NCBI GenBank assembly: GCA_026393755.1
Contig: JAPKZO010000039.1
Location: 134,096 to 198,095, forward strand
DNA: 64,000 nucleotides
DNA from: Acidobacteriota bacterium
GTDB taxonomy: Bacteria > Acidobacteriota > Vicinamibacteria > Vicinamibacterales > JAKQTR01
Reading direction: 5' to 3'
Shown here: one piece after another, positions 4,219-35,152 of the stretch
Numbering within the stretch: the stretch's first letter is position 1
Layout of the letters: each line of letters starts with the position of its first letter
Notes under the pieces: model-generated
Seen by the model: the letters and a program-made list of their open reading frames with translations, nothing else
What the model was told of the DNA's origin: nothing
Database searches by the model: none
Program-made: the position numbers and the translations under genes

Positions 4219-4237
4219 TCTAGCGGGGCGAATCGCT

Positions 4238-5263: not shown

Positions 5264-5277
5264 GCTATAGTCAAATC

Positions 5278-6081
5278 ATGTCCATCTTCGTCGATCAGAT
5301 GGCGGTCTGGCTGCGACAGCAGGTCGCAGACGCCAACGAGAAAGGCATAGTCGTCGGATTGAGCGGAGGCGTGGACTCGGCCGTCGTCGCTCGGGTCGCC
5401 CAGTTGGCCATGGGAGACGCGGTCCTCGGCGTGATCATGCCTGCCCACAGCGATCACCAGGACCAGCAGGACGCGAGGCTGGTCGCCGAGCGCTTCAAGC
5501 TCCCGGTCGTTGTCGTGGACCTGTCGGCGGCTTACGACGATCTGCTTGACATCATCGGACAGGCGCTGGACAACCAGGCTGGAAGGGGCGCGGCAGCGAC
5601 CGAGGCGCCGTCCAGGCTGGCGCTCGCAAACCTGAAGCCGCGCTTGCGCATGACGACGTTGTACGCCGTGGCCAATCGCTACGGCTATCTGGTGGCGGGG
5701 ACCGGCAACCGGAGCGAGATCGCGATCGGGTACTTCACGAAGTACGGGGACGGCGGCGTGGATGTGCTGCCCCTGGGTGCGCTGGTCAAGAGTCAGGTGC
5801 GCGAGTTGGCGCGCGAACTGGATGTGCCGAGGGGCATCATCGAGAAGGCGCCCAGCGCGGGGCTCTGGCGCGGCCAGACCGACGAGGGCGAGATGGGGTT
5901 CAGCTACGCCGAACTCGAGCGGTTCCTGCGCGAGGGCCCGGCCGCCGTGCCCCCCGCGGTGACGCTGAAGATTGAGGCGCTGGCACGGGCCAGCGATCAC
6001 AAGCGGCGGATGCCACCCGTGTTCGAGCCGGTTCCGCGCGAGAGCGCGCCGGCCGACCTGCTCCCGGCAGTTCGCGATTGA
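5278..6081 (+). CDS. nadE: NH3-dependent NAD+ synthetase
   Basis: The internal ATG at 5278 of ORF 4282..6081 gives MSIFVDQMAVWLRQQV...GIVVGLSGGVDSAVVA (SGGxDS PP-loop), then YLVAGTGNRSEIAIGYFTKYGDGGVDVLPLG and DEGEMGFSYAELERFL. These are typical NadE blocks. Confidence 0.9.
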   Translation: MSIFVDQMAVWLRQQVADANEKGIVVGLSGGVDSAVVARVAQLAMGDAVLGVIMPAHSDHQDQQDARLVAERFKLPVVVVDLSAAYDDLLDIIGQALDNQAGRGAAATEAPSRLALANLKPRLRMTTLYAVANRYGYLVAGTGNRSEIAIGYFTKYGDGGVDVLPLGALVKSQVRELARELDVPRGIIEKAPSAGLWRGQTDEGEMGFSYAELERFLREGPAAVPPAVTLKIEALARASDHKRRMPPVFEPVPRESAPADLLPAVRD

Positions 6082-14991: not shown

Positions 14992-15057
14992 GCGGTCTCC
15001 GGTCCTTTCTGCGACGGGTCTGTCGTTGTTGTCTGGAGTTGATTATAGCGGGAAGGC

Positions 15058-16353: not shown

Positions 16354-16735
16354 ACGAGTTCTCCTGCTGACCCGCGTTGGGCGGGGGGCGCACCACAAGA
16401 GCAAGGAGCCACTGTGCGCCAGACGAGGCCGGCGGTGCCTGCTGACAAGGGGGCTCGACGGGCGATGTTGCCGCGCGCGAACCGTGGTGGGCCGTAACCG
16501 GAATCCACGAGGGGCTACGGGGTCTTACCCGTCTTCTCGGTGAGCAGCCACAATCTTGTAATATAGCCTGCGCGGCGGGCAAAGAACGGACAAATGCGGC
16601 AGAGGATGGCGCCTGCGACGGCGCAGGGTTCCCTCGATTCCTGTAGACCGGCGCACGCCATTTTAGAGTATTATCGGGTCCGCCTCCGCGGGATTATTCC
16701 GACCCCCTATTATCCACTCTGAAGGAGAGAATCGC

Positions 16736-20719: not shown

Positions 20720-22045
20720 TCACGCGGCTGCCGGCGACGAGCCAGACCGCGGCGCCGGGGTGCCACGCCGGGTGATCTTGCGCCCGCGGTACGACCGGGC
20801 CAGCTCCATGAATACATCGAGGTCTCGATCGAGATTGGCCCGGACGCCATCGAAGTAGGTATTGCGAATCGGAATGTCATCGTGGTCCGCGCTGACGCGC
20901 GGGTACACGGCCTCGGTCACGATGCCATTCATGCACGTGAACGGCGACACATCAACCACGCCGTCGCAGCCCTGACGGTAGTAGCACACGGCCTTGCCCA
21001 CGCTCAGGGTCATCTCCCCAAGCGCTCCTGTATGCGGCAGGTAGGGCTGTGATGCCTCGAGCACCTCGCGGATCGATGGCTCTTCGTACCCTCGAAGCTC
21101 CTCCCTGAACACCCGATACAGCCGGTGCTCGTCGCGCCCCTGGACGAAGTCCGAGATCTTGGCCCCCAACATGGCTTTCGAGAACCGGAGGCCCTTCCGG
21201 CGCAACCGCTTCTGGTGCTCCTCGTTGGTGTACCGCACCCACTCGACAAGGGGGGCAAGCACGCACTCGCCGCCCAGGTCCTCGATTTTTCGGATGAGCG
21301 TGTTGTTGGCGAACGGAGTCAATCGACAGTAAATCTCGCCGAGCACCCCGATGAGCACCCGGTCGCCAGCCTGGCGGGTCGCGATCTGCTGAAACTGCCG
21401 GCGCGCGCCCGCCAGCGCGGCCTCGAGTTGCTGCATCCGGATCGTGTGGGTCACTCCGGGACGCTCCAGCACGCGTGCGACGTTCGCGATCGCATCATCA
21501 TGCACTCGATCCGTGTCGCCCCTGGTGACCTCGTAGGGCCGAGTCCGGTGGACCATCGCTCGCAGAACGTCCGCACACACCAGGCCGCGAAGGGCGGTGC
21601 GCATCAACTCGCGCGCATGAACGCCGATCCCTCCGTACCCGTCCCGGCTGCTGGGTGAGAAAACCGTCACTTGGTCGAGTGCGAGGTGCTTGAGGACGCC
21701 CGTGATATACGGCGCGTACTGGCCGAACCGGCATGGCCCGTCGGCCGTCGTCATGAAAAAGGCTGTTCGCTCCGGTACGAACCCCGGCTGTTCGGTGACC
21801 TTCAGGAAGTTCCCGAGCGTGATCTTGGCGGGCAGGCACTCCTCGCCAGAGGTGTGGCGCCCCCCGAGTTCCAGGGTCCGCTGATCGCTTTCCGGACAGA
21901 TCTCGGCGTCGACCCCCACGCTGCGGAACGCCGCAGCGAACGCGATCGACGAGCCGCGGCCCATTTCCGGGATCCACAACTTGCGCCCGGCCAGCGGACC
22001 GCCCGGTTGATCGACTGGTGTGCCAGGACGCTCGCCTGTGCTCAC
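20720..22045 (-). CDS. DUF2229-type subunit of an acyl-CoA-dehydratase-activase-related system
   Basis: Contains GPCRFGQY, GEIYCRL and SPFTCMNG, blocks typical of the C-terminal part of large 'activase-related' proteins. The GTG start at 22045 overlaps the upstream stop (GTGA), and ATG 22081 is the alternative. Confidence 0.75.
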   Translation of the reverse strand: MSTGERPGTPVDQPGGPLAGRKLWIPEMGRGSSIAFAAAFRSVGVDAEICPESDQRTLELGGRHTSGEECLPAKITLGNFLKVTEQPGFVPERTAFFMTTADGPCRFGQYAPYITGVLKHLALDQVTVFSPSSRDGYGGIGVHARELMRTALRGLVCADVLRAMVHRTRPYEVTRGDTDRVHDDAIANVARVLERPGVTHTIRMQQLEAALAGARRQFQQIATRQAGDRVLIGVLGEIYCRLTPFANNTLIRKIEDLGGECVLAPLVEWVRYTNEEHQKRLRRKGLRFSKAMLGAKISDFVQGRDEHRLYRVFREELRGYEEPSIREVLEASQPYLPHTGALGEMTLSVGKAVCYYRQGCDGVVDVSPFTCMNGIVTEAVYPRVSADHDDIPIRNTYFDGVRANLDRDLDVFMELARSYRGRKITRRGTPAPRSGSSPAAA

Positions 22046-25000
22046 TGCAGAACCCCCTTGCTCTCCAGGTACGCCTCGCACCGCGTCAGGATGCCCGCGT
22101 CGTTGTTGTGGCCGTCGAACTGCAGTGTCAGAAACGGCCTCCCGGATACGTCAAGCACCCCGTGCTTGACGTACGAATCGGGTCCGCACTTGAAGTTGGT
22201 GATGTAGATGAGGTGGAGATTGGGCCGGTCGCGCGTGAAGGAGGCGGCCGCCAGGACACGGGCGCCCGAATGCCAGTACATCGTGTCCTCGTGCCACCGC
22301 TGGCCATCCGCCTCCGCGGCGAGGAAATCGAATCCCAGGACGTTGGCGCCGTAATATTTCCTGAGCTTGGTCGCCACATCGAGGCTGACGCCACGGTCGT
22401 AGATGTTGTAGGACCGGCCGAGCAGGACCACGCCAGGCTCGCCCGTCTCGTCGAGCGTCGCGAGAGCCCGTCGGCCAGCCTCGGCGATCGATGACTGGAA
22501 CTGACCCATCGCCTCGAACCCCACTCGGACAGCCCGCTGAACCTGACGGGCGCGCCAGCGAAGGCCGATCGCCCCGAACGCCTCCGCGAGCGACGCCGCC
22601 ACCACAGCAGCGCCGCCATTGAACCAGAGTGTCGGCGCAACCACCTTGTGCCGATGCTCGAAGATGAACGGCGCCGCGCGCACCACAAACGGCAGTGTCT
22701 GGTTCCAGGGACAGAAGAAGGACGGCTTCTCCTGTGGATCCCCGGGCGCGGAGATGCTGTTGGGCACAAACACGAAGTCGACGCCCTTCTCCAGCAGCGA
22801 ACGGATGTGACCGTGAGCGACCTGCACCGGAAAACACGGCTCGGCCACGGTCGCCTCGAGGCCGCGTTTCGCGATTTGATTGTTCGTCGGCTCCGAAAGC
22901 AGGACCCGAACGTCGAGCTCCTTGAACACCGCCAGCCAGAACGGGGCCCAGTCATACGTCGAAAGGCAGAACGGCAGTCCGACGACCGGACCGCTGCCCG
23001 CTTCAGGGTTGTACGTCGCGATCAATTCGCGCTCCCGAAACGACACGAGATCCTCGATGGCCGGCTGGCGATCGGACCGGGCGGCCTTGCGGTAGCGCAC
23101 GGCGCACTTGTCACCCCAGTAGGTCTGTTCCCCGTCGATCGTAAAGCGCTGCATCTGGCACTCGTTCGTGCATCCCTTGCAGGTGAACTCGGACATGTCG
23201 TAGTCCACCTGGTCGATCGCAAATCCCCGGAACGACGTCGGACGGCCGTCCCTCATCTTCTCCCGCGCCAGGTGCGCAACCCCCAGCGCGCCGATGACGC
23301 CGTTGAACGGGGGCACGATGACGCGCTTGCCGATGATGGCACTTATGGCCGCGGCGACGGCATCGTTGTAGGCCGTGCCGCCCTGGAAGAAGACGACCTC
23401 GCCAATCCGCCGGCCCCGGACGACCCGGTTGATGTAGTTGGTGGCCACCGACAGGGCCAGTCCCGCGACGACGTCCTTGAGCTCCGCCCCGTCACGCAGA
23501 CGGTTGTTGACGTCGCGCTCCATGAACACGGTGCAGCGCTCTCCGAGCTGGATGGGAGCGTCGCTCGACATCGCCAACGCCGCGAATTCGCCTTCTATCC
23601 GAATGCCCAGCTCCTTTGCGCGCTCCTCGAGGAAGCTGCCCGTGCCCGCGGCGCACGCCTCGTTCATCGCGAAGTCGACGACGATGCCATCCTGCAGACC
23701 GATGAACTTCGCGTCCTGGCCGCCAATTTCGAAGATCGTGTCAACGCCAAGGCCGAGCAGGGTCTTGTCCAGGATCACCGCTCCGGTCTTATGAGCCGTG
23801 ATCTCGTCCTTGACGGCGTCGGCGCCGATCAGCTCCGCGATCAGTTCCCGTCCAGACCCGGTGGTCCCGACGCCGCAAATGCGAATCCGATCACCGAGCG
23901 CTTCCTGGATCCCGCGCAGCCCGCTGGCCACCACTTCGATCGGCCGGGCGTTGGTGCGTAGGTACATCTCCTTCAGCACGGCGCCGTCGCCGTCGATCAC
24001 GACCAGGTTCGTACTGACAGACCCGATGTCGATGCCGAGATAGGCGTCGACCGTGCCGCGCAGTTCCTCGGTCGGCTTCGCGGTCAGTTGCTCCCGCAAC
24101 AGCAGGACATTGTCGAGCGTCAGCGCGGGGGCGCGCGGAAACTGGTGGGTGCTCGGCGCATTCCCGGCCAGGACCAGTGAAGAGGCCGAACTGGCCGAGC
24201 CGCGGGCGCGGTCCGAGGCCAGCAGGGCGGCCCCGATGGCCCCGAACGAGGCGTGTTCAGGGGGAACCAGCAGTGTGCCAGGCTCCCATCCGAACACCCG
24301 CTCCAACGCTCGCGAGACTTCGCTGTTGGCCGCGACGCCGCCGACAAACGCGATGTCGCGTTCGAGCGAGCGCCCCCTGGTAATCGAGCTCTTGAAGTTG
24401 CGCGCAACGGCCTCGCACAGGCCCTTCAGGATCTCCTCGGGCGCGAAGCCCCGCTGCTGGGCATGCACCATGTCGCTCTTCGCGAACACCGAACAGCGTC
24501 CGGCGATCTGCGCGGTCCGCCGCGCCGTGCTCGCGATCTGCCCGGTGTCCTCGATGCGGAACTGAAGCCGGCCAGCCTGCTGATCAAGGAATGCCCCGGT
24601 GCCAGCCGCGCAGTCACCATTCGTGTTGAAATCCGAAATCCGGAGCCGGCCACCCTCGCCGTGGTTGTCGAAGCGGACGTACTTCGACGTCTCACCCCCG
24701 ATCTCAAACAGGGTCCGCACGCCCGGCAGCAAGGCCTCGACGGCCCGCGCGACGACCCGGACCTCGCTCACCGGCTCGATCTGGAACGCCCGAGCGAGCA
24801 TCTCGGCGCCGGCGCCCGTGCCGGCGATCGAACCAAGGGCGGCCCGGCCGATACCGCCGAGCAGGCGTTCGAGGGTCGCGTGCGCCTGCGCCGCAGGGGC
24901 GCCGGATATCCGCACATAGGGACCGACGCAGAGCCGGCCATGGCCAACCGACTCGTTGTGCAGCGGGCGCGGTGGCTGAAACCCGTGGTTGTCCGTCAGG

Positions 25001-25092
25001 CGCTGAAGGTACTCGGCATCCTCAGGCGCGTCCGAGAACACCGCAGTGTTAATGCTGACCGACCCGACATCGATCCCGATATGTATCGCCAT
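22042..25092 (-). CDS. Double BcrA/BadF/HgdC-type ATPase ('CoA-enzyme activase') fused to an HgdB/DUF2229-like domain
   Basis: ATG at 25092 (MAIHIGIDVGSVS). There are two ASKHA ATPase modules, each with a cluster-bridging Cys motif (GDCAAGTGAFLDQQA / RCSVFAKSD, and NEACAAGTGSFLEERA / RCTVFMERD). The second module starts at AYLGIDIGSVSTN. The Cys-rich segment FTCKGCTNECQ follows. Confidence 0.85.
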   Translation of the reverse strand: MAIHIGIDVGSVSINTAVFSDAPEDAEYLQRLTDNHGFQPPRPLHNESVGHGRLCVGPYVRISGAPAAQAHATLERLLGGIGRAALGSIAGTGAGAEMLARAFQIEPVSEVRVVARAVEALLPGVRTLFEIGGETSKYVRFDNHGEGGRLRISDFNTNGDCAAGTGAFLDQQAGRLQFRIEDTGQIASTARRTAQIAGRCSVFAKSDMVHAQQRGFAPEEILKGLCEAVARNFKSSITRGRSLERDIAFVGGVAANSEVSRALERVFGWEPGTLLVPPEHASFGAIGAALLASDRARGSASSASSLVLAGNAPSTHQFPRAPALTLDNVLLLREQLTAKPTEELRGTVDAYLGIDIGSVSTNLVVIDGDGAVLKEMYLRTNARPIEVVASGLRGIQEALGDRIRICGVGTTGSGRELIAELIGADAVKDEITAHKTGAVILDKTLLGLGVDTIFEIGGQDAKFIGLQDGIVVDFAMNEACAAGTGSFLEERAKELGIRIEGEFAALAMSSDAPIQLGERCTVFMERDVNNRLRDGAELKDVVAGLALSVATNYINRVVRGRRIGEVVFFQGGTAYNDAVAAAISAIIGKRVIVPPFNGVIGALGVAHLAREKMRDGRPTSFRGFAIDQVDYDMSEFTCKGCTNECQMQRFTIDGEQTYWGDKCAVRYRKAARSDRQPAIEDLVSFRERELIATYNPEAGSGPVVGLPFCLSTYDWAPFWLAVFKELDVRVLLSEPTNNQIAKRGLEATVAEPCFPVQVAHGHIRSLLEKGVDFVFVPNSISAPGDPQEKPSFFCPWNQTLPFVVRAAPFIFEHRHKVVAPTLWFNGGAAVVAASLAEAFGAIGLRWRARQVQRAVRVGFEAMGQFQSSIAEAGRRALATLDETGEPGVVLLGRSYNIYDRGVSLDVATKLRKYYGANVLGFDFLAAEADGQRWHEDTMYWHSGARVLAAASFTRDRPNLHLIYITNFKCGPDSYVKHGVLDVSGRPFLTLQFDGHNNDAGILTRCEAYLESKGVLQ

Positions 25093-25393
25093 GGGGCTGA
25101 GGCAGATTCCAAACAGTGTGACATGGTGTCGACACGAGATTTCGCGGCCACCGGTTCTAATTATCATACCAGAACCGTCCGGAATCCCCTGTCGATGTTC
25201 CGCACCGCCCGGGTCGGCCAACCTCCCGGTTCAACCTCCCGGTTCTTGACACCACGATCGGCTTGGACGCACGATGGGTGTGGGCCGCGGCTCACCCGAT
25301 CCGCCCGCGCCCCCGAGAGAACGGCGGACGAACGCCCCCTGATACCTCCCCCGGCCGAAAACACGCCGCACCGGGCACGACGAAAGGCCCACG

Positions 25394-27121
25394 ATGAAGA
25401 CGTTTGCCATCAAGGTCGATCCGCTCACCAACGAGGAATACTGGGAAGTGTTCCTGCGCGGCCAGCAACTGCTCAGCGATCCCCTGCTCAACAAGGCGTC
25501 CGCCTTCACCGAAGAGGAGCGGATCGCGCTCGACCTGGTGGGCCTGCTGCGGTCTGGCGTGTCTGAACTCGACATGCAGGAACAGCGCACGCTGGAAGCC
25601 TACCGGCGCAAGCCCGGGGACGATCTGGAGAAGTACATCTATCTCCAGGGCCTGATGGATCGGAACGAAGTCCTGTTCTACCGCCTGCTGGTGAACAACC
25701 TCCCCGAAATGCTCCCCATCATCTACACGCCGACGGTTGGCCAGGCCTGCCTGCAATTGAGCAAGATCACGCGGCGGTACCGCGGCGTTTACATCAGCCC
25801 CGAGAGCGTCGGCCGCATCGATCAGATGCTGCAGAGCCTCTCGCTGCCGAGCGTCAACCTGATTGTCGTCACCGACGGCGAGCGCATCCTGGGACTGGGC
25901 GATCTGGGGTCCGACGGCATGGGCATCCCGGTCGGCAAGGTCAAGCTCTACGTCGCCGCCGGGGGCCTGCATCCGGCCTGCTGCCTCCCGGTCTGCCTCG
26001 ACGTGGGCACCAACAACGAGGCGCTCCTGAACGACCCGCTCTATCTCGGGTGGAAGCACCCGCGGCTCGATGGCGACGAGTATTGGGATTTCGTCGAAAA
26101 GTTCGTGCTGGGCGTGAAGCGCAACCTCCCCGAGGCGCTGGTCCAGTGGGAGGATTTCGCGAAACACAAGGCGTTCACGCTGCTCGAACGCTACCAGGAG
26201 CGCCTCCTCTCGTTCGACGACGACATCCAGGGCACCGGCGCCGTGGCGATTGCGTCGATCATGACGGCGATGCGCATCAAGAAGAGCCGCATCAGCGACG
26301 AGCGATTCGTGAGTGCCGGCATGGGCCAGGCCGGCGTCGGGATCGCGATGAACATCCGCACGCTGATGAAGGCCTCTGGACTGAACGACGAGGAAATCCG
26401 GCGCCGCATCTTCGCCATCGACGTCCCGGGCTTGCTGATGCACGACACTCCCGGCCTGTCGAAGTGGCAGAAGCCTTTCGCCCAGGATCGCGAGACGGTC
26501 GCCGGGTGGACGCTTCACTCCCAGGGCCGGATTGATCTGCTCGACGTCGTCACCAACGCGCACCCCACGGTGGTGGTCGGCGTGACCGCCCAACCCGGCC
26601 TCTTCAGCCAGGACATCCTGTCGGCGATCGCCCGGAGGGAGCGGCGGCCTGTCGTGCTGGTGCTCTCCAACCCGACGAGCAAGTCGGAGTGCACGCCAGA
26701 CGATGTGGCGCGCGCCACCGATGGACACGGCCTGATCGCGACGGGCAGTCCGTTCCCAGACACGTCGTGGGAGGGGCGGACCATCACGACGTCGCAGTGC
26801 AACAACCTCTACATGTTCCCGGGCGTGGGCCTTGGCGCGCTGGTCGCGAAAGCGCCCAAGGTGACCCATGCCATGTTCTTTGCCGCCAGCCGGGCGCTCT
26901 CCGCCATGGTGACGCCGGCCCAGGAACAACAGGGCTGTCTCCTCCCGCCGATGGACGACATCAGGGCGGTGTCGCGGGTGATCGCGAAGGCGGTCGCCAT
27001 CGAGGCACGCGACGCCGGGCTGGGGCGGCTCATGGACGATCAGAAGATCAGTTCCGTGATTGCGCAGGCACAATGGGAACCCGGTTACGCGCCATATCGG
27101 CCTGGGCGGCTGATCTGGTGA
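25394..27121 (+). CDS. maeA: NAD-dependent malic enzyme (large SfcA/MaeA type)
   Basis: 575 aa with LLNKASAFTEEER, IYTPTVGQAC, VTDGERILGLGDLG, FDDDIQGTGAV, GMGQAGVGIA, LSNPTSKSECT. Confidence 0.9.
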   Translation: MKTFAIKVDPLTNEEYWEVFLRGQQLLSDPLLNKASAFTEEERIALDLVGLLRSGVSELDMQEQRTLEAYRRKPGDDLEKYIYLQGLMDRNEVLFYRLLVNNLPEMLPIIYTPTVGQACLQLSKITRRYRGVYISPESVGRIDQMLQSLSLPSVNLIVVTDGERILGLGDLGSDGMGIPVGKVKLYVAAGGLHPACCLPVCLDVGTNNEALLNDPLYLGWKHPRLDGDEYWDFVEKFVLGVKRNLPEALVQWEDFAKHKAFTLLERYQERLLSFDDDIQGTGAVAIASIMTAMRIKKSRISDERFVSAGMGQAGVGIAMNIRTLMKASGLNDEEIRRRIFAIDVPGLLMHDTPGLSKWQKPFAQDRETVAGWTLHSQGRIDLLDVVTNAHPTVVVGVTAQPGLFSQDILSAIARRERRPVVLVLSNPTSKSECTPDDVARATDGHGLIATGSPFPDTSWEGRTITTSQCNNLYMFPGVGLGALVAKAPKVTHAMFFAASRALSAMVTPAQEQQGCLLPPMDDIRAVSRVIAKAVAIEARDAGLGRLMDDQKISSVIAQAQWEPGYAPYRPGRLIW

Positions 27122-29246: not shown

Positions 29247-30190
29247 AAGCCCGCGCGAGCTTCGTCGCGCTGGCCATCGCCCTCATCGTGATGGCGGTGA
29301 TCCTGCACCGGCTCGACTGGCAGGCCGTCATCGCGACCTGGGCGCGCGTGATCTGGCCGTGGGTGGTCGCGTCGGCCGCCGTCAACATCGTTGACAGCTG
29401 GGTCCAGGGGCTGCGGTGGCGGACGGTGCTCGGCGCCAGCGATGTCGCCGTGCGGGCGAGCATGGCGTTCTGGGCGATGCTGGTCGGAACCGTCGGCAAC
29501 GTCCTGCTGCCGTTCAAGCTGGGAGAGGCGGCGCGGGCGTGGGCCGTGGCGCGGCTGGCCAAGGCGCCGATCGCGACAGTGGCCTCTACCGTGGTGCTCG
29601 ATCGACTGGTCGATCTGGCGGCCCTTGTCATCCTGTTGATGGTGATTCCGCCGATCGTCGGCCCGATCGTTGGCGTCAGACTGCCGAGTCTTCGCGCCCT
29701 GCTGGTTGTGGTCTGCGGGGCGTTGCTGCTCGTGGCGCTGGCCGCCGCGGGGTGGCGGCGCCTTCGGTGGCACCGCAGGAACAGCGGCGCCGGCGGATTC
29801 GGGCCGCGGATCGAGTCGTTTGTGCGCGGCCTGAACGCGCTGAGACAGCATCACATTCTGGCGCAGGCGATCGCCTGGGCCATCGGCTCATGGTGCACGC
29901 GGGTGATCGTCGTGTGGATCATGTTCCACGCATTCGGGCTCGACTGGCCCGTGATGCGGGCGGCGATGATCCTGTTGATCATCAACGTCAGCATCGCGGT
30001 GGTGGCCACGCCCGGCAATATCGGCACGTTCGAATTGGCCGCGGCAGGGGCGCTCAGGCTGTTTGGCGCAACGCCGGAAGTGGCGATGAGCTTCGCCGTC
30101 ATCCTCCATGTGGCGGAAGTCGCGCCCACGGCCCTGCTTGGCGCGCTCGCCATCTGGAAGTTCGGGCTGACGCTGAGGCGCCCGGACTAG
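29243..30190 (+). CDS. Lysylphosphatidylglycerol-synthase-TM-region-like (UPF0104, flippase-like) membrane protein
   Basis: ATG at 29243 overlaps the deacetylase stop (ATGA). The protein is a 315-aa polytopic membrane protein with RW(R/K) and GNxLLPxKLGE-type motifs (GNVLLPFKLGEAAR). Confidence 0.7.
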   Translation: MKARASFVALAIALIVMAVILHRLDWQAVIATWARVIWPWVVASAAVNIVDSWVQGLRWRTVLGASDVAVRASMAFWAMLVGTVGNVLLPFKLGEAARAWAVARLAKAPIATVASTVVLDRLVDLAALVILLMVIPPIVGPIVGVRLPSLRALLVVVCGALLLVALAAAGWRRLRWHRRNSGAGGFGPRIESFVRGLNALRQHHILAQAIAWAIGSWCTRVIVVWIMFHAFGLDWPVMRAAMILLIINVSIAVVATPGNIGTFELAAAGALRLFGATPEVAMSFAVILHVAEVAPTALLGALAIWKFGLTLRRPD

Positions 30191-30900
30191 CGCGTCAATG
30201 CGAGGACGACCGCGTCAGCGTCCGACAGATTCTCAAACACGATACCGGCGCCGGCCGCTCGGAGTGCCGCCTGGTCGAAGCCGCCGGTCGCGACGGCGAC
30301 AGAGTTGACCCCGGCCTTCCTCGCGGCGTCCACATCGAGCGGCGTATCGCCGATGATGATGACGTCTGATGATTCCACTGGAGGACAACCCGCTTCGGCG
30401 GCCCGGGCGACGGCAACTGGTACCAACTCGTGCCGGAGGGCGGCATCTCCGCCGTACGCGCCGCAGTGGAAGTGGCGCCAGAGGTCGAAGTAGGCGAGCT
30501 TGATCCTGGCGCCATCCACGTAGTTCCCGGTCAACAACCCGAGAAACACCGTGTCGATGGCGGCCAGGCGGCCGATCAGTTCGGGAACGCCAGGCAGTGC
30601 GCCTTTGAACCAGCGGCGGGACGCACCGCTGGCGGGTGGGGGCACCGGCGAATCAATCTCGTGTTCGAGCAGCGTGAGGTAGGCCGAGGTGAAGTCGGCA
30701 AGATGACCTGCCGACGGCTCAATCCCGAACGTCGCCAGCGCATCCGACAGAATCGCCGGATCGGTCCGTCCCGCCATCGGCACACCCCGAAAGGCGTCGG
30801 GAACGCCAAAGACAGCCTCGAACGCCCGGTTCATCGCGCGCACGCCGGCGCCGCCGGTCAGCACGAGGGTCCCGTCTACATCGAACAGCAGGAGTTTCAC
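30187..30900 (-). CDS. HAD-superfamily hydrolase (phosphoglycolate-phosphatase-like)
   Basis: Motif I LLLFDVDGTLV and motif IV IIIGDTPLDVDAA. The GTG at 30900 overlaps the PHP gene stop (GTGA). The ORF-track ATG at 30933 would overlap by 37 nt. Confidence 0.8.
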   Translation of the reverse strand: MKLLLFDVDGTLVLTGGAGVRAMNRAFEAVFGVPDAFRGVPMAGRTDPAILSDALATFGIEPSAGHLADFTSAYLTLLEHEIDSPVPPPASGASRRWFKGALPGVPELIGRLAAIDTVFLGLLTGNYVDGARIKLAYFDLWRHFHCGAYGGDAALRHELVPVAVARAAEAGCPPVESSDVIIIGDTPLDVDAARKAGVNSVAVATGGFDQAALRAAGAGIVFENLSDADAVVLALTR

Positions 30901-31805
30901 AGGGTGATACCTCGAAGCCCGGCCCGGCGGCACAAGTCGTCGAAATCGCGGGCGGGCAGGACGAAGCGACCGAGGCCGCCCGGGTGATGCGACTGGTCAC
31001 CGTGATAGTCGGATCCGCCCGTGACGCCAAGGTTCAGTCGGCGGGCCAGCGCCAGATAGCGACTTGTGTCCGCGTCGGCATGATCGGCGTGGTAGACCTC
31101 GAGCGCATCAAGACCGGCGCCCGCGAGGTCGGCGATGACGCGGTCAATCCCGGCCACACCCGGATGCGCCAGCGATGCGATCCCGCCGGCGTCCTTGATG
31201 ATCCGGATGGCGCGCCTGACGGTCACCCCGGCCCTCGGCTCATACGCCGGGGCGCGCTCCCCGACGTACTGTTGAAAGGCGTCCTGCCGCCGCTGGACGT
31301 GGCCCGCATCGACAAGGGCCTGCGCGATGGCCGGTCTGGACACCGGTCTGTCGCCGGCCGACGCGATCACCTGTTCGATATCGATCGGCACGCCCATCGA
31401 CGCCAGCCGTACGCCAATCACGCGTGCGCGGCGGATGCGGTCCCGGCGCTGATCGGCCAGGAACGCGGCCAGGGCTGGCGCGAGCGGATCGAAGAAGTAC
31501 CCCAGCACGTGCACGTCCTTGCGCCGCCACACCGCCGTGATCTCGATGCCGGACACGAACCCCAGGCCCGCACACCGTGCGGCCGCCTCCGCCGCGGGAA
31601 TCGCCGCAGTCGTGTCGTGGTCGGTGACGGCGACGACCGACAGGCCGGCCGACGCGCAGTTCGCCACGAGCGCTTCGGGCGCGTCCACGCCATCGGAGGC
31701 CGTCGAATGCAGGTGCAGATCGATCAACGGTGACGGGCGGCCCGGATGCGGAGAGGCGTCGGGGTTCTGCACGGACAACGTCCTTCGATTCATGAGGTCG
31801 GTCAC
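30897..31805 (-). CDS. PHP-domain metal-dependent phosphoesterase (TrpH/YciV-like)
   Basis: IDLHLHSTASDG, AVTDHDT, GIEI..., AHP and GGSDYHG, the typical PHP His/Asp ladder. Confidence 0.85.
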   Translation of the reverse strand: MTDLMNRRTLSVQNPDASPHPGRPSPLIDLHLHSTASDGVDAPEALVANCASAGLSVVAVTDHDTTAAIPAAEAAARCAGLGFVSGIEITAVWRRKDVHVLGYFFDPLAPALAAFLADQRRDRIRRARVIGVRLASMGVPIDIEQVIASAGDRPVSRPAIAQALVDAGHVQRRQDAFQQYVGERAPAYEPRAGVTVRRAIRIIKDAGGIASLAHPGVAGIDRVIADLAGAGLDALEVYHADHADADTSRYLALARRLNLGVTGGSDYHGDQSHHPGGLGRFVLPARDFDDLCRRAGLRGITL

Positions 31806-31893
31806 GAGGGCATCTATTCAGGACGTCGTGCTGAGTGAGCGCTTTCGCCGGATCGCATTGGGGGAGTGCGCCACGTCATTGCGAGTCGAAGCA

Positions 31894-32880
31894 TTACGCC
31901 CGGCGTCGGGCGGAACGGGCACGGCGCGCCGCGCGGGCCTCGTTCTCCCGCTTCGTCAGACTGATGTACTCGCGCAGCAGGAGATCGAGATGCCCGCGTT
32001 CCTCGTCGGCGAATTCCAGGAAGATCTGTTTGCCGGTGGAATCCTCGAATCGCTCGCCGTATCGCTTGAAGAAGCGATGCGACGTCCGCTCGCATCGGAT
32101 GCCGATCTTGAGCGCCTGTCGATCGTCCACGCCTCGCGCCACTTCTTCGGCCGCCGCCGCGAACAATCCGTTGGCGGCTCCCTTGAAGAACAGGAACGTC
32201 GGCCGCGACTCGAGCTGCGGATCCTGCTGCAGCAGCTTCTGATAGCGCGACTCGAGCGCGGACAGGTGATCGCGTTCCTCGTCGGCCAGCTTCTGGAACA
32301 CCCGCCTGCCCCGCGCGTCCCGGGTCGTCCTGGCGGCACGCGTGTAGAACTCGAGGCCGCTGCGTTCGGTGGCAATGGCGATCCTCAATGCATCGCGGGC
32401 AAACACCATTTCACTGGTGTCGCCATCGACCACCGCGGGCTTGCCTGTGCGGCACTCGTCACAGGTGCCGTAGATCTGCAGCACGCTCTGGCGAGCGGAG
32501 AAGCTCCTGGCGGCCGCGACTTCCTCGATCAGGGCTTCGATGTCGGAGCTGAGGAATTCGAGCGACCGGTTGCACGTCTTGCAGATGAGATGGAAGTGGC
32601 GCGGATGCCGATACGAGTGCTCAAACCGGAACCGGCCTTCGCCGAAATCCACCTTGCGGGCGATACCGGCCTCCACCATCCACTGCAGCGTCCGATAGAC
32701 GGTCGCCCGGCTGATGCGCGCGTCCTCGCGATGGATCAGGTCCACCAGATCGTCGGCCGAGAGATGGCCTTCGTGCTTGAGGAAGACCCCGAGGATGCGC
32801 TCACGCTTGGTGGAGCGTTTGCCGCCTGGCAGGGCCAAACGGGAAACGTCCGGCACGACGGGATCAGCTGGCGTTGACAT
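31894..32880 (-). CDS. Fur-family transcriptional regulator fused to a rubrerythrin/ferritin-like diiron domain
   Basis: ATG at 32880. The N-terminal half is Fur-like (ISRATVYRTLQWMVEAG; HFHLICKTC...YGTCDEC, two CxxC pairs). The C-terminal half has two E...ExxH pairs (ATERSGLEFY...LADEERDHL and RCERTSHRFF...FADEERGHL). Confidence 0.8.
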   Translation of the reverse strand: MSTPADPVVPDVSRLALPGGKRSTKRERILGVFLKHEGHLSADDLVDLIHREDARISRATVYRTLQWMVEAGIARKVDFGEGRFRFEHSYRHPRHFHLICKTCNRSLEFLSSDIEALIEEVAAARSFSARQSVLQIYGTCDECRTGKPAVVDGDTSEMVFARDALRIAIATERSGLEFYTRAARTTRDARGRRVFQKLADEERDHLSALESRYQKLLQQDPQLESRPTFLFFKGAANGLFAAAAEEVARGVDDRQALKIGIRCERTSHRFFKRYGERFEDSTGKQIFLEFADEERGHLDLLLREYISLTKRENEARAARRARSARRRA

Positions 32881-32948
32881 CGTGGGGAAACAAGGTCGGG
32901 CCACTTCTTCAAGAGTTGGTTGGGAAAAGCGGCCCGGCCCCTTTTCCC

Positions 32949-33281
32949 TTATTCTGCGCTGAACGACGATCCGCAACCGCAAGTCGACTTCGCGTTGGGG
33001 TTGCGAATGGTAAACCCGCCGCCCGTCACGCTGTCAACGAAATCCACTTCCGCGCCCCCGAGGTACCGGGCGCTGATCGGATCGATAAACAACTTCACGC
33101 CGTTCGATTCGAACGACTGGTCGCCGGGTCCCGGACTGTCTTCGATCATCAGGCCGTACTGAAATCCCGAACAGCCGCCTCCCTGCACGAAGACGCGAAG
33201 ACCGCTTTCTGTTTTCTGTTCTTCAGCCAGCAACTCGTTGATCCGGGCGGCGGCCGATGCCGAAACGTTCACCATGTTCAA
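32949..33281 (-). CDS. erpA: Fe-S cluster insertion protein, A-type carrier (ErpA/IscA, HesB family)
   Basis: 110 aa with GLRVFVQGGGCSGFQY and the C-terminal CGCGSSF, which is the HesB signature. Confidence 0.9.
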   Translation of the reverse strand: MNMVNVSASAAARINELLAEEQKTESGLRVFVQGGGCSGFQYGLMIEDSPGPGDQSFESNGVKLFIDPISARYLGGAEVDFVDSVTGGGFTIRNPNAKSTCGCGSSFSAE

Positions 33282-33312
33282 CTCCCTGCGGGTGGTCTAT
33301 GCACCCGTTCTG

Positions 33313-33318
33313 ATTATA
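33313..33318 (-). promoter_or_regulatory. Candidate -10 hexamer TATAAT for the erpA / fur-rbr transcription unit
   Basis: A perfect TATAAT on the minus strand lies about 32 nt upstream of the erpA ATG. No good -35 hexamer is seen at 16-18 nt spacing. Confidence 0.3.
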
Positions 33319-33399
33319 GCGTGATGACCGAGCGTGAGGCGACTGCCCCGCCTCCACTTGCCGATCGAAATTCGCCATATCATGTTATGTTACAGCGAG

Positions 33400-33565
33400 T
33401 TAGCAGCCCGTGGCGGAAGTCGGTCGTCGCACCGAGACCGTCGATGCGGCCGGATCGCAAGGCGCGAAACGCGAGAATATCGGGAATATTTGAGCGTTGA
33501 GCAACGCCGCGAGGCGGTATGCAGCGTCGGTCGAATGCAGACTGACTTGCACCACGGGCTGCTAG
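33400..33565. mobile_element. MITE-like element (166 bp) with imperfect 23-nt terminal inverted repeats related to the IS end at 993..1015
   Basis: The left arm at 33400-33422 (TTAGCAGCCCGTGGCGGAAGTCG) matches the reverse complement of the right arm at 33543-33565 (CTAGCAGCCCGTGGTGCAAGTCA) at 19/23 positions. The right arm is identical to 993-1015. Both ends abut TAG/CTAG. There is no coding capacity. Confidence 0.6.
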
Positions 33566-33630
33566 CCCGTTCGACGCGGTGCTGATGCGCCTGGCTCAGG
33601 GCTAATCCAGAGCCAAGGTCTTGAATTCGT

Positions 33631-33664
33631 CCTGAGTCGAAGCCCGCCCTTCGGCAAGCTCAGG
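33631..33664. repeat. REP-like imperfect hairpin CCTGAG-t-CGAAG-cccgcc-CTTCG-gcaag-CTCAGG
   Basis: Read directly in the intergenic region upstream of the aldehyde dehydrogenase gene. A further CTCAGG copy is at 33595-33600. Confidence 0.35.
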
Positions 33665-33718
33665 GCGTGGCGAGGGGCCTCCAGGATCCTTCACAACACG
33701 CCCCCTGGAGTCGCAACC

Positions 33719-35152
33719 GTGACCCACCAATACCCTTTTTACCTGGCCGGCGAGTGGGAAACGTCAACCCACCAGCTCGCCGTCACCAACCCGTACGACG
33801 ATTCAGTCGTCGCGGCCACATGGCTGGCCGCCGACGCTGACGTCGAGCGGGCGACGGCGGGGGCCGTCGAGGCAGCGCCCACTATGCGTCGGCTCCCGGC
33901 CTACCGCCGGGCGGAGATCCTGGCACAGGCTTCAGCCGTGCTGATCAGACGACGCGACGAGATCGGACGGGCGCTCGCCGGTGAAGCCGGCAAACCCATC
34001 AGGGACGCGCTGACGGAGGTCGATCGGGCCGCCATGACCTTCCACGTCGCAAGCGAAGAGGCCCGCCGGCTGGGTGGTGAGGTCATCCCGCTCGACCTGG
34101 CCGCCCACGGTCAGGGCCGCACGGCTATCCTGCGTCGCGTGCCGCTCGGACCGGTCTCGGGGATCTCCCCGTTCAACTTCCCGCTCAACCTCTCGGCGCA
34201 CAAGATCGCGCCGGCGATCGCGGCCGGCAACACGATGGTGCTCAAGCCTGCGTCGAAGACGCCGCTGTCGGCGCTGTTCCTGGCGTCGGCACTCGACGAG
34301 GCCGGCCTTCCCAAAGGCGCGCTCAGCGTGCTGCCGATGTCGCGCGAACTGGGCGACCGGCTCGTGACCGATGATCGGTTCAAACTGCTGACCTTCACGG
34401 GCTCGTCGCCAGTCGGCTGGGCGATGAAGGCGCGCGCCGGGAAGAAGAAGGTCCTCCTCGAACTTGGCGGCAACGCCGGCGTCATTGTCGATGCCAGCGC
34501 CAACCTGGCGTACGCCGCGCGGCGGGTGGTGACAGGCGGGTTTGCGTACGCGGGACAAAGCTGCATCTCGGTGCAGCGCGTCTTCGTGCATGCGGACGTG
34601 TACGACGCGTTCGTCACGCTGTTGATTGAAAAGCTGTCCGGGCTGGTCATCGGCGATCCGCTCGACCCGGCCACCGACCTCGGCCCCATGATCGACGCGG
34701 GCGAAGTGGATCGGATCGAGGCGTGGGTGAAGGAAGCGGTCGCGCAGGGCGCGCGCGTGCTGACCGGCGGTTCGCCCATCAGCCGCTCGATTTTTGCCCC
34801 GACGGTCCTCGAGCAGGTGCCGGAACGATCCAGGATCTGCGCGCAGGAAGTGTTCGCGCCGGTCATCGGATTGTACCGGTTCACCGACTTCAATGACGCC
34901 ATGGCCGCCGTGAACCGGTCGAGTTTCGGCCTGCAGGCCGGCGTCTTCACCAACGATCTGCTCCACACGTTGGCAGCCTACGACACCCTCGAAGCCGGCG
35001 GCATCATCGTCAACGACGTGCCCACCTGGCGGATTGATCACATGCCCTACGGAGGCGTCAAGGACTCGGGCACTGGGCGCGAAGGTCCACGCTACGCGAT
35101 CGAAGAAATGACCGAACCCCGGCTGCTCGTGATCAACAGGGAGATGGCGTAA
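33719..35152 (+). CDS. NAD(P)-dependent aldehyde dehydrogenase
   Basis: GTG start. 477 aa with FNFPLNL, LKPASKTP, the catalytic LELGGNAG (Glu) and GQSCISVQR (Cys), and PYGGVKDSGTGREG. Confidence 0.9.
   Translation: MTHQYPFYLAGEWETSTHQLAVTNPYDDSVVAATWLAADADVERATAGAVEAAPTMRRLPAYRRAEILAQASAVLIRRRDEIGRALAGEAGKPIRDALTEVDRAAMTFHVASEEARRLGGEVIPLDLAAHGQGRTAILRRVPLGPVSGISPFNFPLNLSAHKIAPAIAAGNTMVLKPASKTPLSALFLASALDEAGLPKGALSVLPMSRELGDRLVTDDRFKLLTFTGSSPVGWAMKARAGKKKVLLELGGNAGVIVDASANLAYAARRVVTGGFAYAGQSCISVQRVFVHADVYDAFVTLLIEKLSGLVIGDPLDPATDLGPMIDAGEVDRIEAWVKEAVAQGARVLTGGSPISRSIFAPTVLEQVPERSRICAQEVFAPVIGLYRFTDFNDAMAAVNRSSFGLQAGVFTNDLLHTLAAYDTLEAGGIIVNDVPTWRIDHMPYGGVKDSGTGREGPRYAIEEMTEPRLLVINREMA

What the first reader, a model, noticed from the sequence alone, without database searches (positions are those of the whole stretch)
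31894..32880. Rosetta-stone fusion: Fur/PerR-like DNA-binding regulator plus a complete rubrerythrin-type diiron four-helix bundle
The N-terminal 150 aa or so carry a Fur-family winged helix and both structural CxxC pairs (CKTC, CDEC). The C-terminal 170 aa or so carry the full set of diiron ligands in two E...ExxH pairs (ERSGLEFY/DEERDHL and CERTSHRF/DEERGHL). Fur/PerR regulators and rubrerythrins are normally separate proteins, and in Desulfovibrio they are genetically linked as perR-rbr. A covalent fusion suggests a one-component regulator whose DNA binding is gated by the redox or occupancy state of a diiron site. The gene sits directly downstream of erpA (Fe-S carrier), which fits an iron or peroxide theme.
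Basis: partly seen in the sequence, partly recalled or inferred. Interest (0 to 1): 0.65.

Follow-up and report, generated by a model that had tools for sequence, protein, structure and literature searches.

The report
Fur regulator fused to diiron domain
This gene really does encode one protein joining an iron-sensing Fur-type DNA-binding regulator to a ferritin-like two-iron domain; the design is conserved across Acidobacteriota, is filed in databases only as "Fur family", and I found no published study of it.

Summary
Window 31894-32880 (minus strand) is one 328-aa ORF. It has a Fur domain (Pfam PF01475, E 3e-26, residues 20-137) and a ferritin-like four-helix bundle (PF02915, E 6e-11, residues about 158-309).

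The fusion is not an assembly artefact. It is a single uninterrupted ORF in 81 of 83 loci. Relatives were found in at least 491 GTDB species genomes and in thousands of protein clusters. Almost every named member is Acidobacteriota.

In 240 cluster representatives from two subfamilies (about 35% identical to each other), three ligand sets are essentially invariant:
- Fur regulatory site: H39, E87, H95, H97, E108.
- Structural Cys4 site: C100, C103, C140, C143.
- Diiron site: E172, E202, H205, E264, E294, H297.

The Fur domain keeps its own Fur-type (not PerR- or Zur-type) metal sensor, so the diiron site is unlikely to be the only gate. The C-domain is a six-ligand COG1633/TM1526-type domain, not a true rubrerythrin: it lacks the seventh Glu and has no separate rubredoxin module.

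The erpA-fusion-PHP gene order is conserved in Vicinamibacteria-type loci only.

Most likely it is an iron-responsive repressor with a second, diiron-based iron or oxidant input. That mechanism is inferred. I found no operator and no publication. I rate it a new variant of a known kind.

The parts
31894..32880 (-). Complete fusion gene: 328 codons plus stop, ATG at 32880.
   Evidence: ORF list and sequence. Both Pfam domains lie in one frame. The start matches the N-termini of homologues.
32446..32823 (-). Fur domain, residues 20-145: winged helix with recognition helix ATVYRTL (R63 invariant) plus the dimerisation domain. Regulatory-site ligands H39, E87, H95, H97, E108. Structural Cys4 site C100, C103, C140, C143.
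   Evidence: PF01475 E 3.2e-26. PDB sequence hits are Fur, Zur and PerR. Ligands were mapped onto C. jejuni Fur and M. tuberculosis FurB and are invariant in 240 representatives. The model superposes on holo-Fur with TM 0.84-0.90 and rmsd 1.3-1.8 A.
32410..32445 (-). Linker, residues 146-157 (GKPAVVDGDTSE). It is variable and modelled with lower confidence.
   Evidence: The pLDDT block for residues 151-160 is 67, against 82-98 on either side. The sequence varies in alignment A1.
31954..32409 (-). Ferritin-like four-helix bundle, residues 158-309. Diiron ligands: E172 (helix A), E202 and H205 (helix B), E264 (helix C), E294 and H297 (helix D). Second-shell Y179 and F271. Family-specific B-C crossover loop with invariant P227, F229, L230, F232.
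   Evidence: PF02915 E 5.6e-11. The C-terminal ferritin domain of NF009413 matches at E 7e-18. A profile hits 1vjx at 3.7e-11 and 2fzf at 6.7e-10. The AF2 domain model has pLDDT 91.7. Foldseek matches are dominated by ferritin-like proteins. Ligands are invariant.
31897..31953 (-). Arg-rich C-terminal tail, residues 310-328 (KRENEARAARRARSARRRA). Present in Vicinamibacteria-type members and absent from the second subfamily.
   Evidence: Alignment A1. It is modelled as a continuation of helix D.
32949..33281 (-). erpA (A-type Fe-S carrier), directly upstream on the same strand and probably co-transcribed.
   Evidence: NF010147 ErpA 135.3 bits against a cut-off of 117. It is adjacent in 82 of 82 related loci, with a gap of 22-180 nt.
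33313..33318 (-). Perfect TATAAT -10 box of the erpA promoter, 37 nt upstream of the erpA start.
   Evidence: TATAAT lies 20-75 nt upstream of erpA in 78 of 83 loci. A conserved TT sits at -35 with a 17-nt spacer.
32922..32948 (.). A 13+13 nt inverted repeat immediately after the erpA stop codon. It is a hairpin specific to this genome, not a conserved operator.
   Evidence: It is absent from the equivalent spacer of the related loci.
30897..31805 (-). PHP-domain metal-dependent phosphoesterase gene, 88 nt downstream on the same strand.
   Evidence: PF02811 E 7.6e-9. It is downstream in most related loci (roughly 70 of 82 by my count).

Best explanation
The gene encodes a lineage-specific Fur-family transcription factor of Acidobacteriota.

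Shown by sequence and model:
- An N-terminal winged helix and a Fur dimerisation domain.
- An intact structural Cys4 site and an intact Fur-type His3Glu2 regulatory metal site.
- A roughly 12-residue linker leading to a ferritin-like four-helix bundle with a complete six-ligand diiron site.

Inferred:
- The protein is a dimeric, metal-dependent repressor. Fe(II) at the Fur site provides the basic iron input.
- The fused diiron domain adds a second input. It either binds further iron, or it reacts with O2 or H2O2 (diferrous to diferric).
- That change passes through the short linker and the conserved B-C loop to the dimerisation/hinge region. It would change DNA affinity or drain Fe(II) from the regulatory site.
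- One polypeptide would then integrate iron supply with oxidant load. Other bacteria split this task between Fur and PerR, or between Fur and a trans-acting iron-binding partner such as Fpa/YlaN.
- In Vicinamibacteria-type genomes the gene is probably co-transcribed with erpA from a conserved sigma-70 promoter. This would tie its expression to Fe-S cluster delivery.
For: - Both domains pass Pfam cut-offs.
- The five Fur site-2 ligands, the four Cys and the six diiron ligands are each conserved in at least 119 of 120 representatives in both subfamilies, which share only about 35% identity. Selection therefore maintains both metal sites together.
- DNA-contact residue R63 is invariant.
- The full-length AF2 model is confident (pLDDT 85.5, pTM 0.78). 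Its Fur half matches DNA-bound and holo Fur structures at TM 0.84-0.90.
- The C-domain model has pLDDT 91.7, and its fold matches are dominated by ferritin-like proteins.
- The fusion is one ORF in 81 of 83 loci, and relatives were found in at least 491 species genomes.
- The best NCBIfam match to the C-domain is the ferritin domain of a multidomain oxidoreductase (NF009413, E 7e-18). This fits a redox-active diiron centre.
- Precedent for an iron-binding partner protein modulating Fur: Fpa/YlaN binds Fe(II), interacts with Fur and lowers its DNA binding (PMC11559061).
- Genetic perR-rbr linkage is noted in PMC12754779.
Against: - There is no experimental data of any kind.
- No operator was found. 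The window has no canonical Fur, PerR or Zur box (best 13 of 19). Nothing beyond the -10 and -35 elements is conserved in register at the erpA promoter. No motif is shared upstream of seven second-subfamily genes.
- Because the Fur site is intact, the protein could work as an ordinary Fur, with the extra domain doing something unrelated to DNA binding.
- Only a monomer was modelled, so the dimer geometry and any contact between the bundle and the Fur domain are unknown.
- A few divergent metagenomic members have lost diiron ligands (P0144, P0193, P0180). The domain can therefore persist without the metal site.
Confidence: 0.45

Rival explanations
1. Bifunctional 'trigger enzyme' or DNA-tethered detoxifier. 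The ferritin-like domain would be a working ferroxidase or peroxidase, like erythrin, rubrerythrin or Dps. The Fur domain would mainly place it on DNA, or report its catalytic state. The main role would be local protection against Fenton chemistry rather than signal integration.
For: - The diiron ligand set is complete and invariant, and the second-shell Tyr (Y179, seven residues after E172) is invariant. A Tyr at this spacing occurs in bacterioferritin and rubrerythrin (from my own knowledge, not checked here).
- Relatives of the domain are fused to NAD(P)H-type oxidoreductase modules (NF009413).
- Fold matches include Dps and bacterioferritin.
- Vicinamibacteria-type members carry an Arg-rich tail that could bind DNA non-specifically.
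Against: - There is no rubredoxin or other dedicated electron-donor module.
- The Fur regulatory site and the recognition helix are under the same strict conservation as in true regulators.
- A regulator is normally present in few copies, which is a poor basis for bulk detoxification.
- A cage assembly like ferritin or Dps is hard to reconcile with an N-terminal Fur dimer (inference).
Confidence: 0.2
2. Fe-S-based sensing. As reported for E. coli Fur, the Cys site would reversibly bind a [2Fe-2S] cluster, here supplied by the co-transcribed A-type carrier ErpA. The ferritin-like domain would act as iron donor or buffer, or as the oxidant-sensitive element that controls cluster occupancy.
For: - erpA is immediately upstream in 82 of 82 Vicinamibacteria-type loci, and the gap is as short as 22 nt.
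- All four Cys are invariant.
- E. coli Fur binds a [2Fe-2S] cluster through its Cys site, and this needs IscU (PMC10318462, PMC12538065, PMC11001641).
Against: - The erpA linkage is absent from all seven second-subfamily loci, although those proteins keep the same ligands.
- Cys4 in two CxxC pairs is the classical structural Zn site of most Fur proteins.
- The mononuclear site-2 ligands are also invariant.
Confidence: 0.1
3. The helical bundle is mainly an oligomerisation or stabilisation module, for example driving tetramer formation or replacing part of the Fur dimer interface. Its metal site would be structural and would not act in signalling.
For: - One divergent member (P0180) lacks the Fur dimerisation domain altogether. 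It joins the winged helix directly to a ligand-degenerate bundle.
- P0193 has lost both sets of metal ligands but keeps the architecture.
- I recall that rubrerythrin-like bundles commonly dimerise (from my own knowledge, not checked here).
Against: Six of six diiron ligands are conserved in at least 119 of 120 representatives in each subfamily. That is much stricter than a purely structural role usually needs. The degenerate members are single metagenomic sequences.
Confidence: 0.15
4. Artefact: two adjacent genes (fur and a ferritin-like gene) joined by a frameshift or assembly error in this contig.
For: None found. Two of 83 related loci (L015, L058) have an interrupted frame.
Against: One ORF in 81 of 83 independent loci. 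All 240 listed homologues from the two searches (about 290-400 aa) carry both Pfam domains. The linker is in frame, with no stop in any of these.
Confidence: 0.01

Closest known systems
Fur (ferric uptake regulator), e.g. Magnetospirillum gryphiswaldense Fur (4rb1-4rb3), Francisella Fur (5nhk), C. jejuni and H. pylori Fur
   Same: - Winged helix plus dimerisation domain.
- Structural Cys4 site.
- A His/Glu/His/His/Glu regulatory site identical in type to site 2 of H. pylori and C. jejuni Fur.
- About 30-35% identity. The model superposes on holo-Fur at TM 0.84-0.90.
   Different: - It carries about 180 extra C-terminal residues forming a diiron bundle.
- Site 3 (H, D, E, H) is lost in the Vicinamibacteria-type (R94, F96, S132), although mostly kept in the second subfamily.
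- It scores far below every NCBIfam Fur equivalog cut-off (69.8 against 220).
- No Fur box was found nearby.
PerR and the perR-rbr gene pairs of anaerobes and myxobacteria
   Same: A Fur-family regulator functionally tied to a rubrerythrin-type diiron protein. The fusion is the covalent version of that linkage (for the literature mention).
   Different: The regulatory ligands are Glu87 and Glu108, not the Asp85 and Asp104 that I recall as typical of B. subtilis PerR (from my own knowledge). The PerR models score 59.8 against a cut-off of 180. In perR-rbr pairs the rubrerythrin is a regulated target enzyme, not part of the regulator.
Fpa (YlaN)-Fur of Staphylococcus aureus and Bacillus
   Same: An Fe(II)-binding partner that uses O/N ligands, contacts Fur and changes its DNA binding (PMC11559061). 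A Fur-YlaN model also appears among the fold matches (9a4a). This is the nearest functional analogue of 'Fur plus an attached iron-binding module'.
   Different: Fpa is a separate small protein that acts in trans. It was not among the family or structure hits for the C-domain, has no E/ExxH diiron motif, and occurs in Gram-positive bacteria.
COG1633 / TM1526-type ferritin-like diiron-carboxylate proteins (1vjx, 2fzf, 2oh3) and the 'erythrin' domains of MbfA and NF009413-type proteins
   Same: A four-helix bundle made of two helix pairs, each giving E...ExxH. These are the best sequence and profile matches to the C-domain.
   Different: Those proteins stand alone or are fused to transporters or oxidoreductases, never (in what I retrieved) to a DNA-binding domain. 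The fusion family has its own conserved B-C loop (PxFLxF) and the N-terminal FARDAL motif.
Rubrerythrin in the strict sense (D. vulgaris, P. furiosus)
   Same: Pfam family PF02915, a diiron four-helix bundle and a second-shell Tyr on helix A.
   Different: There is no rubredoxin domain and no seventh ligand: helix C reads E264-R-T-S267, where I recall rubrerythrin having ExxE (from my own knowledge). Classical rubrerythrins are absent from the 13 PDB sequence hits and the top 50 fold hits.

Membership tests
Fur family (PF01475) | Winged-helix DNA-binding domain followed by an alpha/beta dimerisation domain. | tested here: met
   Pfam 92.3 bits against a cut-off of 23.1. The AF2 model superposes on Fur crystal structures at TM 0.84-0.90.
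Fur family (PF01475) | Structural Zn(Cys)4 site made of two CxxC pairs. | tested here: met
   C100, C103, C140 and C143 are present. They are invariant in 239-240 of 240 representatives. Metal identity was not testable.
Fur family (PF01475) | Regulatory metal site (site 2) ligands. | tested here: met
   H39, E87, H95, H97 and E108 align with the site-2 positions of C. jejuni Fur. They are invariant.
Fur family (PF01475) | Metal-dependent binding to a specific operator. | not testable with these tools
   No Fur, PerR or Zur box and no conserved operator was found. This needs EMSA, DAP-seq or ChIP-seq.
Fur in the strict sense (NCBIfam equivalogs NF051892, NF006999, NF051891) | Score above the curated equivalog cut-off. 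| tested here: not met
   69.8 against 220, 67.5 against 146 and 59.0 against 200.
PerR | Asp at the two carboxylate positions of the regulatory site, and a PerR equivalog score. | tested here: not met
   Glu87 and Glu108 occupy those positions. NF052545 scores 59.8 against 180 and NF047406 scores 36.9 against 200. The Asp rule itself comes from my own knowledge of B. subtilis PerR.
Zur | A Cys-containing regulatory site (C76 in M. tuberculosis FurB) and a Zur equivalog score. | tested here: not met
   S89 aligns with the Cys I recall as FurB C76 (alignment). NF008646 scores 57.1 against 167.
Ferritin-like superfamily, diiron-carboxylate four-helix bundle | Four-helix bundle with E / ExxH / E / ExxH ligands. 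| tested here: met
   E172, E202-x-x-H205, E264 and E294-x-x-H297 are invariant. Four long helices are modelled at pLDDT 91.7. Fold hits are dominated by ferritin-like proteins, though at weak E values of about 1e-3 and TM 0.55-0.6.
Ferritin-like superfamily, diiron-carboxylate four-helix bundle | Actually binds two Fe ions. | not testable with these tools
   Requires metal analysis and spectroscopy.
Rubrerythrin (strict sense) | Pfam PF02915 match. | tested here: met
   43.4 bits against a cut-off of 22.8.
Rubrerythrin (strict sense) | Rubredoxin-type Fe(Cys)4 domain fused to the bundle. | tested here: not met
   No rubredoxin domain hit. The only CxxC pairs belong to the Fur dimerisation domain.
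Rubrerythrin (strict sense) | Seventh ligand: a second Glu on helix C (ExxE). | tested here: not met
   Helix C reads E264-R-T-S267. Position 267 is Ser or Ala in all 240 representatives. The ExxE rule comes from my own knowledge of D. vulgaris rubrerythrin.
Ferritin / bacterioferritin / Dps cages | Assembly into 12- or 24-mer shells for iron storage. | not tested
   Only weak fold similarity.

The most novel reading that the evidence does not exclude
Acidobacteriota would use a new sensing mechanism within the Fur family. A reversible diiron redox switch would control DNA binding. Electrons might be relayed through the Fur Cys4 site, which sits just N-terminal to the bundle much as the rubredoxin centre does in a 'reverse rubrerythrin'. 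The protein would then report iron and peroxide or oxygen together, without the sacrificial histidine oxidation that PerR uses. It would serve as the phylum's master iron and oxidative-stress regulator.
Probability: 0.15. Interest if true: 0.8.

Novelty: new variant of a known kind. Interest (0 to 1): 0.55.

Why it matters
Fur-family proteins are the central iron and peroxide regulators of bacteria, and their sensing chemistry is still debated (mononuclear Fe(II), a [2Fe-2S] cluster, or partner proteins such as Fpa/YlaN).

Here an abundant and poorly studied soil phylum has permanently attached a complete diiron centre to an otherwise intact Fur. Every ligand of both metal sites has been kept across subfamilies that share only about 35% identity. 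This gives a natural, testable case of how a second metal or redox centre can be wired into a Fur regulator.

It also flags that the generic 'Fur family' annotation in thousands of Acidobacteriota genomes hides a distinct architecture. No new biology is shown yet. The value is a well-defined family, its ligands, and a clear set of experiments.

Tried and rejected
1. **Window palindrome as operator.** The inverted repeat at 32922-32948 between erpA and the fusion gene is not conserved. The spacer varies from 22 to 180 nt with unrelated sequence in the related loci. It is probably a genome-specific hairpin.

2. **Canonical boxes.** I scanned the whole window for E. coli Fur 19-mer and Fur, PerR and Zur 7-1-7 boxes. 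The best Fur match is 13 of 19 and lies inside a coding region. Nothing lies near erpA or the fusion gene.

3. **Conserved motif at the erpA promoter.** I searched 73 loci aligned on the -10 box. Only TATAAT and a TT at -35 carry information.

4. **GAATATCCAA.** This 10-mer stood out upstream of the gene in two second-subfamily genomes. It did not recur in four further genomes. What they share is only a TAGAAT-like -10 box. Rejected as an operator.

5. **Rfam.** A scan of 31500-34000 found no RNA family.

6. **Literature.** Six literature searches were run; the five aimed at a Fur-ferritin or Fur-rubrerythrin fusion found no description of one. Two papers were read in full and mention none. 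The sixth retrieved the Fur [2Fe-2S] and Fpa/YlaN papers.

7. **Broad genome scan.** A genome scan with an eight-sequence alignment failed for lack of a conserved stretch. A four-sequence alignment worked.

8. **Fold search of the full-length model.** It returned only Fur hits, so I modelled and searched the C-domain separately.

9. **Spread outside Acidobacteriota.** I could not show any. The only non-Acidobacteriota labels (L045 Acidimicrobiia, L057 Bifidobacteriaceae) encode Vicinamibacteria-type proteins (71-78% identical) with erpA directly upstream. They look like binning errors.
Full report
**Observation.** The stretch 31894-32880 is a single ORF on the minus strand: ATG at 32880, stop at 31894-31896, 328 aa. 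The ORF finder also lists a TTG start at 32982. That start would overlap erpA, and homologues begin at the same Met as the ATG, so I do not accept it.

Pfam finds FUR (PF01475, 92.3 bits, E 3.2e-26, residues 20-137) and Rubrerythrin (PF02915, 43.4 bits, E 5.6e-11, two stretches). DUF2383 and Ferritin_2 score below threshold over the same C-terminal region. The upstream neighbour is ErpA by the NCBIfam equivalog (135 bits against a cut-off of 117).

**Is the fusion real?** Yes. A search of 5.8 billion proteins gave 5395 hits at E<=1e-5 among the 8000 candidates scored. All of the top 120 (75-100% identical, 312-341 aa) carry both Pfam domains.

In the 80 best loci, plus two fetched earlier and the window itself (83 in all; the two earlier loci duplicate two of the 80), the Fur half is followed directly by the ferritin-like half. 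In 81 of these 83 the two halves are one uninterrupted ORF. The two exceptions, L015 and L058, are long-read MAG contigs and probably carry indel errors.

**How widely does it occur?** A search of 50%-identity representatives with the C-domain alone found 48 clusters at E<=1e-30 and 211 at E<=1e-10. These include full-length fusions only 30-40% identical to the window protein (P0179, P0197, P0214, P0224, P0246).

Re-searching with P0197 recovered a second subfamily of 268 proteins at E<=1e-10. Its named members are Acidobacteriota, Terriglobia or 'Acidobacteria bacterium'. Almost all named members of the first subfamily are Vicinamibacterales or Acidobacteriota. Two MAGs labelled Acidimicrobiia and Bifidobacteriaceae encode Vicinamibacteria-type proteins with erpA directly upstream, and are probably mis-binned.

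The nearest stand-alone relatives are proteins of about 170 aa at about 30% identity. One is from candidate division KSB1 and is named 'ferritin family protein'. The sources call the fusion only 'Fur family ferric uptake transcriptional regulator' or 'transcriptional repressor'.

**Anatomy of the Fur half.** I aligned it with C. jejuni Fur and M. tuberculosis FurB, taking those sequences from the PDB alignments.
- The window protein has H39, E87, H95, H97 and E108 at the positions of the regulatory site (site 2 in the H. pylori and C. jejuni numbering).
- C100, C103, C140 and C143 form the structural Cys4 site.
- The carboxylates are Glu, not the Asp I recall for PerR.
- The Cys ligand I recall for Zur (FurB C76) is Ser89 here. 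The domain is therefore Fur-like rather than PerR- or Zur-like.
- No NCBIfam equivalog cut-off is reached. The best is Bacillus-type Fur at 69.8 against 220.
- Site 3 (H, D, E, H) is replaced by R94, F96, E115 and S132 in the Vicinamibacteria-type. It is mostly retained (H, H, E, H) in the second subfamily.

**Anatomy of the C-half.** It carries E172 on helix A, E202-x-x-H205 on helix B, E264 on helix C and E294-x-x-H297 on helix D. The second-shell aromatics are Y179 and F271. This is the symmetric six-ligand set of bacterioferritin- or erythrin-type sites. The position that supplies rubrerythrin's extra helix-C Glu is Ser or Ala in every family member examined.

There is no rubredoxin domain. 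A profile of the domain hits TM1526 (1vjx, 3.7e-11), P. furiosus 2fzf (6.7e-10), COG1633 2oh3 and the encapsulated ferritins. It does not hit classical rubrerythrins. The strongest NCBIfam match is the C-terminal ferritin domain of a multidomain oxidoreductase (NF009413, E 7e-18, residues 136-306). A family-specific crossover loop (P227, F229, L230, F232) and an N-terminal FARDAL motif are invariant.

**Conservation.** I compared 240 cluster representatives, 120 from each subfamily, which share about 35% identity with each other. Each of the 15 ligand positions is conserved in at least 119 of 120 in both subfamilies. So is the DNA-contact Arg63. Both metal systems are therefore under joint purifying selection. 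This argues against a decaying remnant of either partner.

A few single metagenomic sequences are degenerate:
- P0144 has lost E172.
- P0193 has lost ligands of both sites.
- P0180 lacks the Fur dimerisation domain.

**Structure.** The AlphaFold2 model built on a 46-sequence alignment has mean pLDDT 85.5 and pTM 0.78. It shows a Fur fold, a lower-confidence linker (residues 146-157) and four long helices. The Fur half superposes best on metal-bound and DNA-bound Fur (4rb1-4rb3, 4raz, 5nhk, 5nbc; TM 0.80-0.90, rmsd 1.3-2.0 A). It fits apo forms poorly.

The C-domain modelled alone has pLDDT 91.7. Its PDB fold matches are dominated by ferritin-like proteins: the ferritin-like domain of Ava_4496, 2fzf, MJ0754, PA4880, bacterioferritins, Dps and 2oh3. 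The scores are modest (E about 1e-3, TM about 0.55-0.6), so it has no close solved homologue.

**Context.** On the minus strand the order is erpA (32949-33281), the fusion gene, a PHP-domain phosphoesterase (30897-31805) and a HAD hydrolase (30187-30933). erpA is directly upstream in 82 of 82 related loci. PHP is downstream in most of them, roughly 70 by my count.

The erpA-fusion spacer is 22-180 nt and is not conserved. The window's 27-nt palindrome is private to this genome. A perfect TATAAT lies 20-75 nt upstream of erpA in 78 of 83 loci, with TT at -35. The fusion gene is therefore probably co-transcribed with erpA from a conserved housekeeping-type promoter.

In seven second-subfamily loci the gene stands alone among unrelated housekeeping genes, and erpA is absent. 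The Fe-S theme is thus specific to one lineage and is not a property of the family.

**Mechanism.** What is shown: an intact Fur-type regulator and an intact diiron bundle sit in one chain, and both are strictly conserved. What is inferred: the protein is a dimeric Fe(II)-dependent repressor, and the diiron domain adds a second input, either iron load or O2/H2O2. I give this 0.45.

The rivals are:
- a DNA-tethered ferroxidase or peroxidase, or 'trigger enzyme' (0.2);
- a mainly structural or oligomerisation role (0.15);
- Fe-S-based sensing fed by ErpA, by analogy with the [2Fe-2S] form of E. coli Fur (PMC10318462, PMC12538065, PMC11001641) (0.1);
- an artefact (0.01).

The closest functional precedent for an iron-binding module attached to Fur is Fpa/YlaN, which acts in trans (PMC11559061). 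I found no operator, so the regulon is unknown.

**Novelty and verdict.** Six full-text searches were run; the five that looked for such a fusion found no description of one, and two papers read in full mention none. The sixth search was for the Fur [2Fe-2S] precedent. The library lacks many subscription papers, so this is absence of evidence only.

The sequences themselves are public and generically annotated. I therefore class it as a new variant of a known kind: a Fur-family regulator with a fused diiron ferritin-like domain, apparently specific to Acidobacteriota. Interest is 0.55. A metalloregulation specialist would want to test it, but nothing here shows new chemistry yet.

Noticed in passing
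Related loci, 125-186 nt upstream of erpA (e.g. L025, L043, L053, L059, L067, L004-L008). The equivalent window position is about 33396-33430 on the minus strand, where the motif is degenerate (GCTGCTAA).: A bipartite motif, GGAGAC or GGATCC, then 16-17 nt, then CGTCTAA. It lies about 110 nt upstream of the TATAAT box in 21 of 81 loci. The pattern occurs only 28 times in 1.66 Mb (both strands) of all loci, and 22 of those are upstream of erpA (one looks spurious). It resembles an ECF-sigma-type promoter, which would give the erpA-fusion operon a second, stress-inducible promoter.
   Followed up: partly
window 33375-33394 (minus strand): An AT-rich segment, TGTAACATAACATGATATGG, in a 65% GC genome. 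It sits between the divergent aldehyde dehydrogenase gene and erpA. A related ATAACA(T/C)GAT core is found in eight close relatives (L004-L008, L012, L046) that also have the aldehyde dehydrogenase neighbour. It is partly palindromic (ATAACATGATAT). It could be a regulator binding site, but it is not a canonical Fur box.
   Followed up: partly
window 25155-25169: One of the three most AT-rich 20-nt windows in the 64 kb. TTCTAATTATCATAC matches a PerR-type 7-1-7 box at 11 of 14 positions. It lies between a BcrAD/BadFG-type activase gene (22042-25221, minus) and a malic enzyme gene (25394-27121, plus).
   Followed up: no
L001 and L002 (Acidobacteriota MAG chromosomes), positions about 2400-5900: In these relatives a class I (Fe-S dependent) fumarase gene sits just upstream of erpA. 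A class II (iron-free) fumarase is transcribed divergently next to it. A 99-aa Fe-S_biosyn-like gene follows the PHP gene. This is an iron-dependent and iron-independent isozyme pair beside the regulator.
   Followed up: no
Proteins P0144, P0193, P0180 (metagenomic representatives): Degenerate family members. P0144 has lost E172 only. P0193 has lost ligands of both the Fur site and the diiron site. P0180 joins the winged helix directly to a ligand-less bundle with no Fur dimerisation domain. They may be paralogues with a metal-independent role.
   Followed up: partly
window 31897-31953 (residues 310-328): An Arg-rich C-terminal tail (KRENEARAARRARSARRRA) is present in Vicinamibacteria-type members but absent from the second subfamily. 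It may add non-specific DNA affinity, or it may simply reflect high GC content.
   Followed up: no
L045 (VFZH01000032.1, labelled Acidimicrobiia) and L057 (CAYHHH010000075.1, labelled Bifidobacteriaceae): These contigs encode Vicinamibacteria-type proteins (71-78% identical) with erpA directly upstream (PHP and HAD also follow in L057), yet sit in MAGs with unrelated taxonomic labels. This is probably mis-binning.
   Followed up: no
L015 and L058: These are the only two of 83 loci where the fusion ORF is interrupted. Both are MAG contigs from the same long-read series (MFD...), so indel errors are the likely cause.
   Followed up: no
window 15041-15050 (minus strand): The same extended -10 sequence as at the erpA promoter (CGCTATAATC) occurs once more in the window, in an intergenic gap downstream of the minus-strand gene at 15058-16404.
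   Followed up: no
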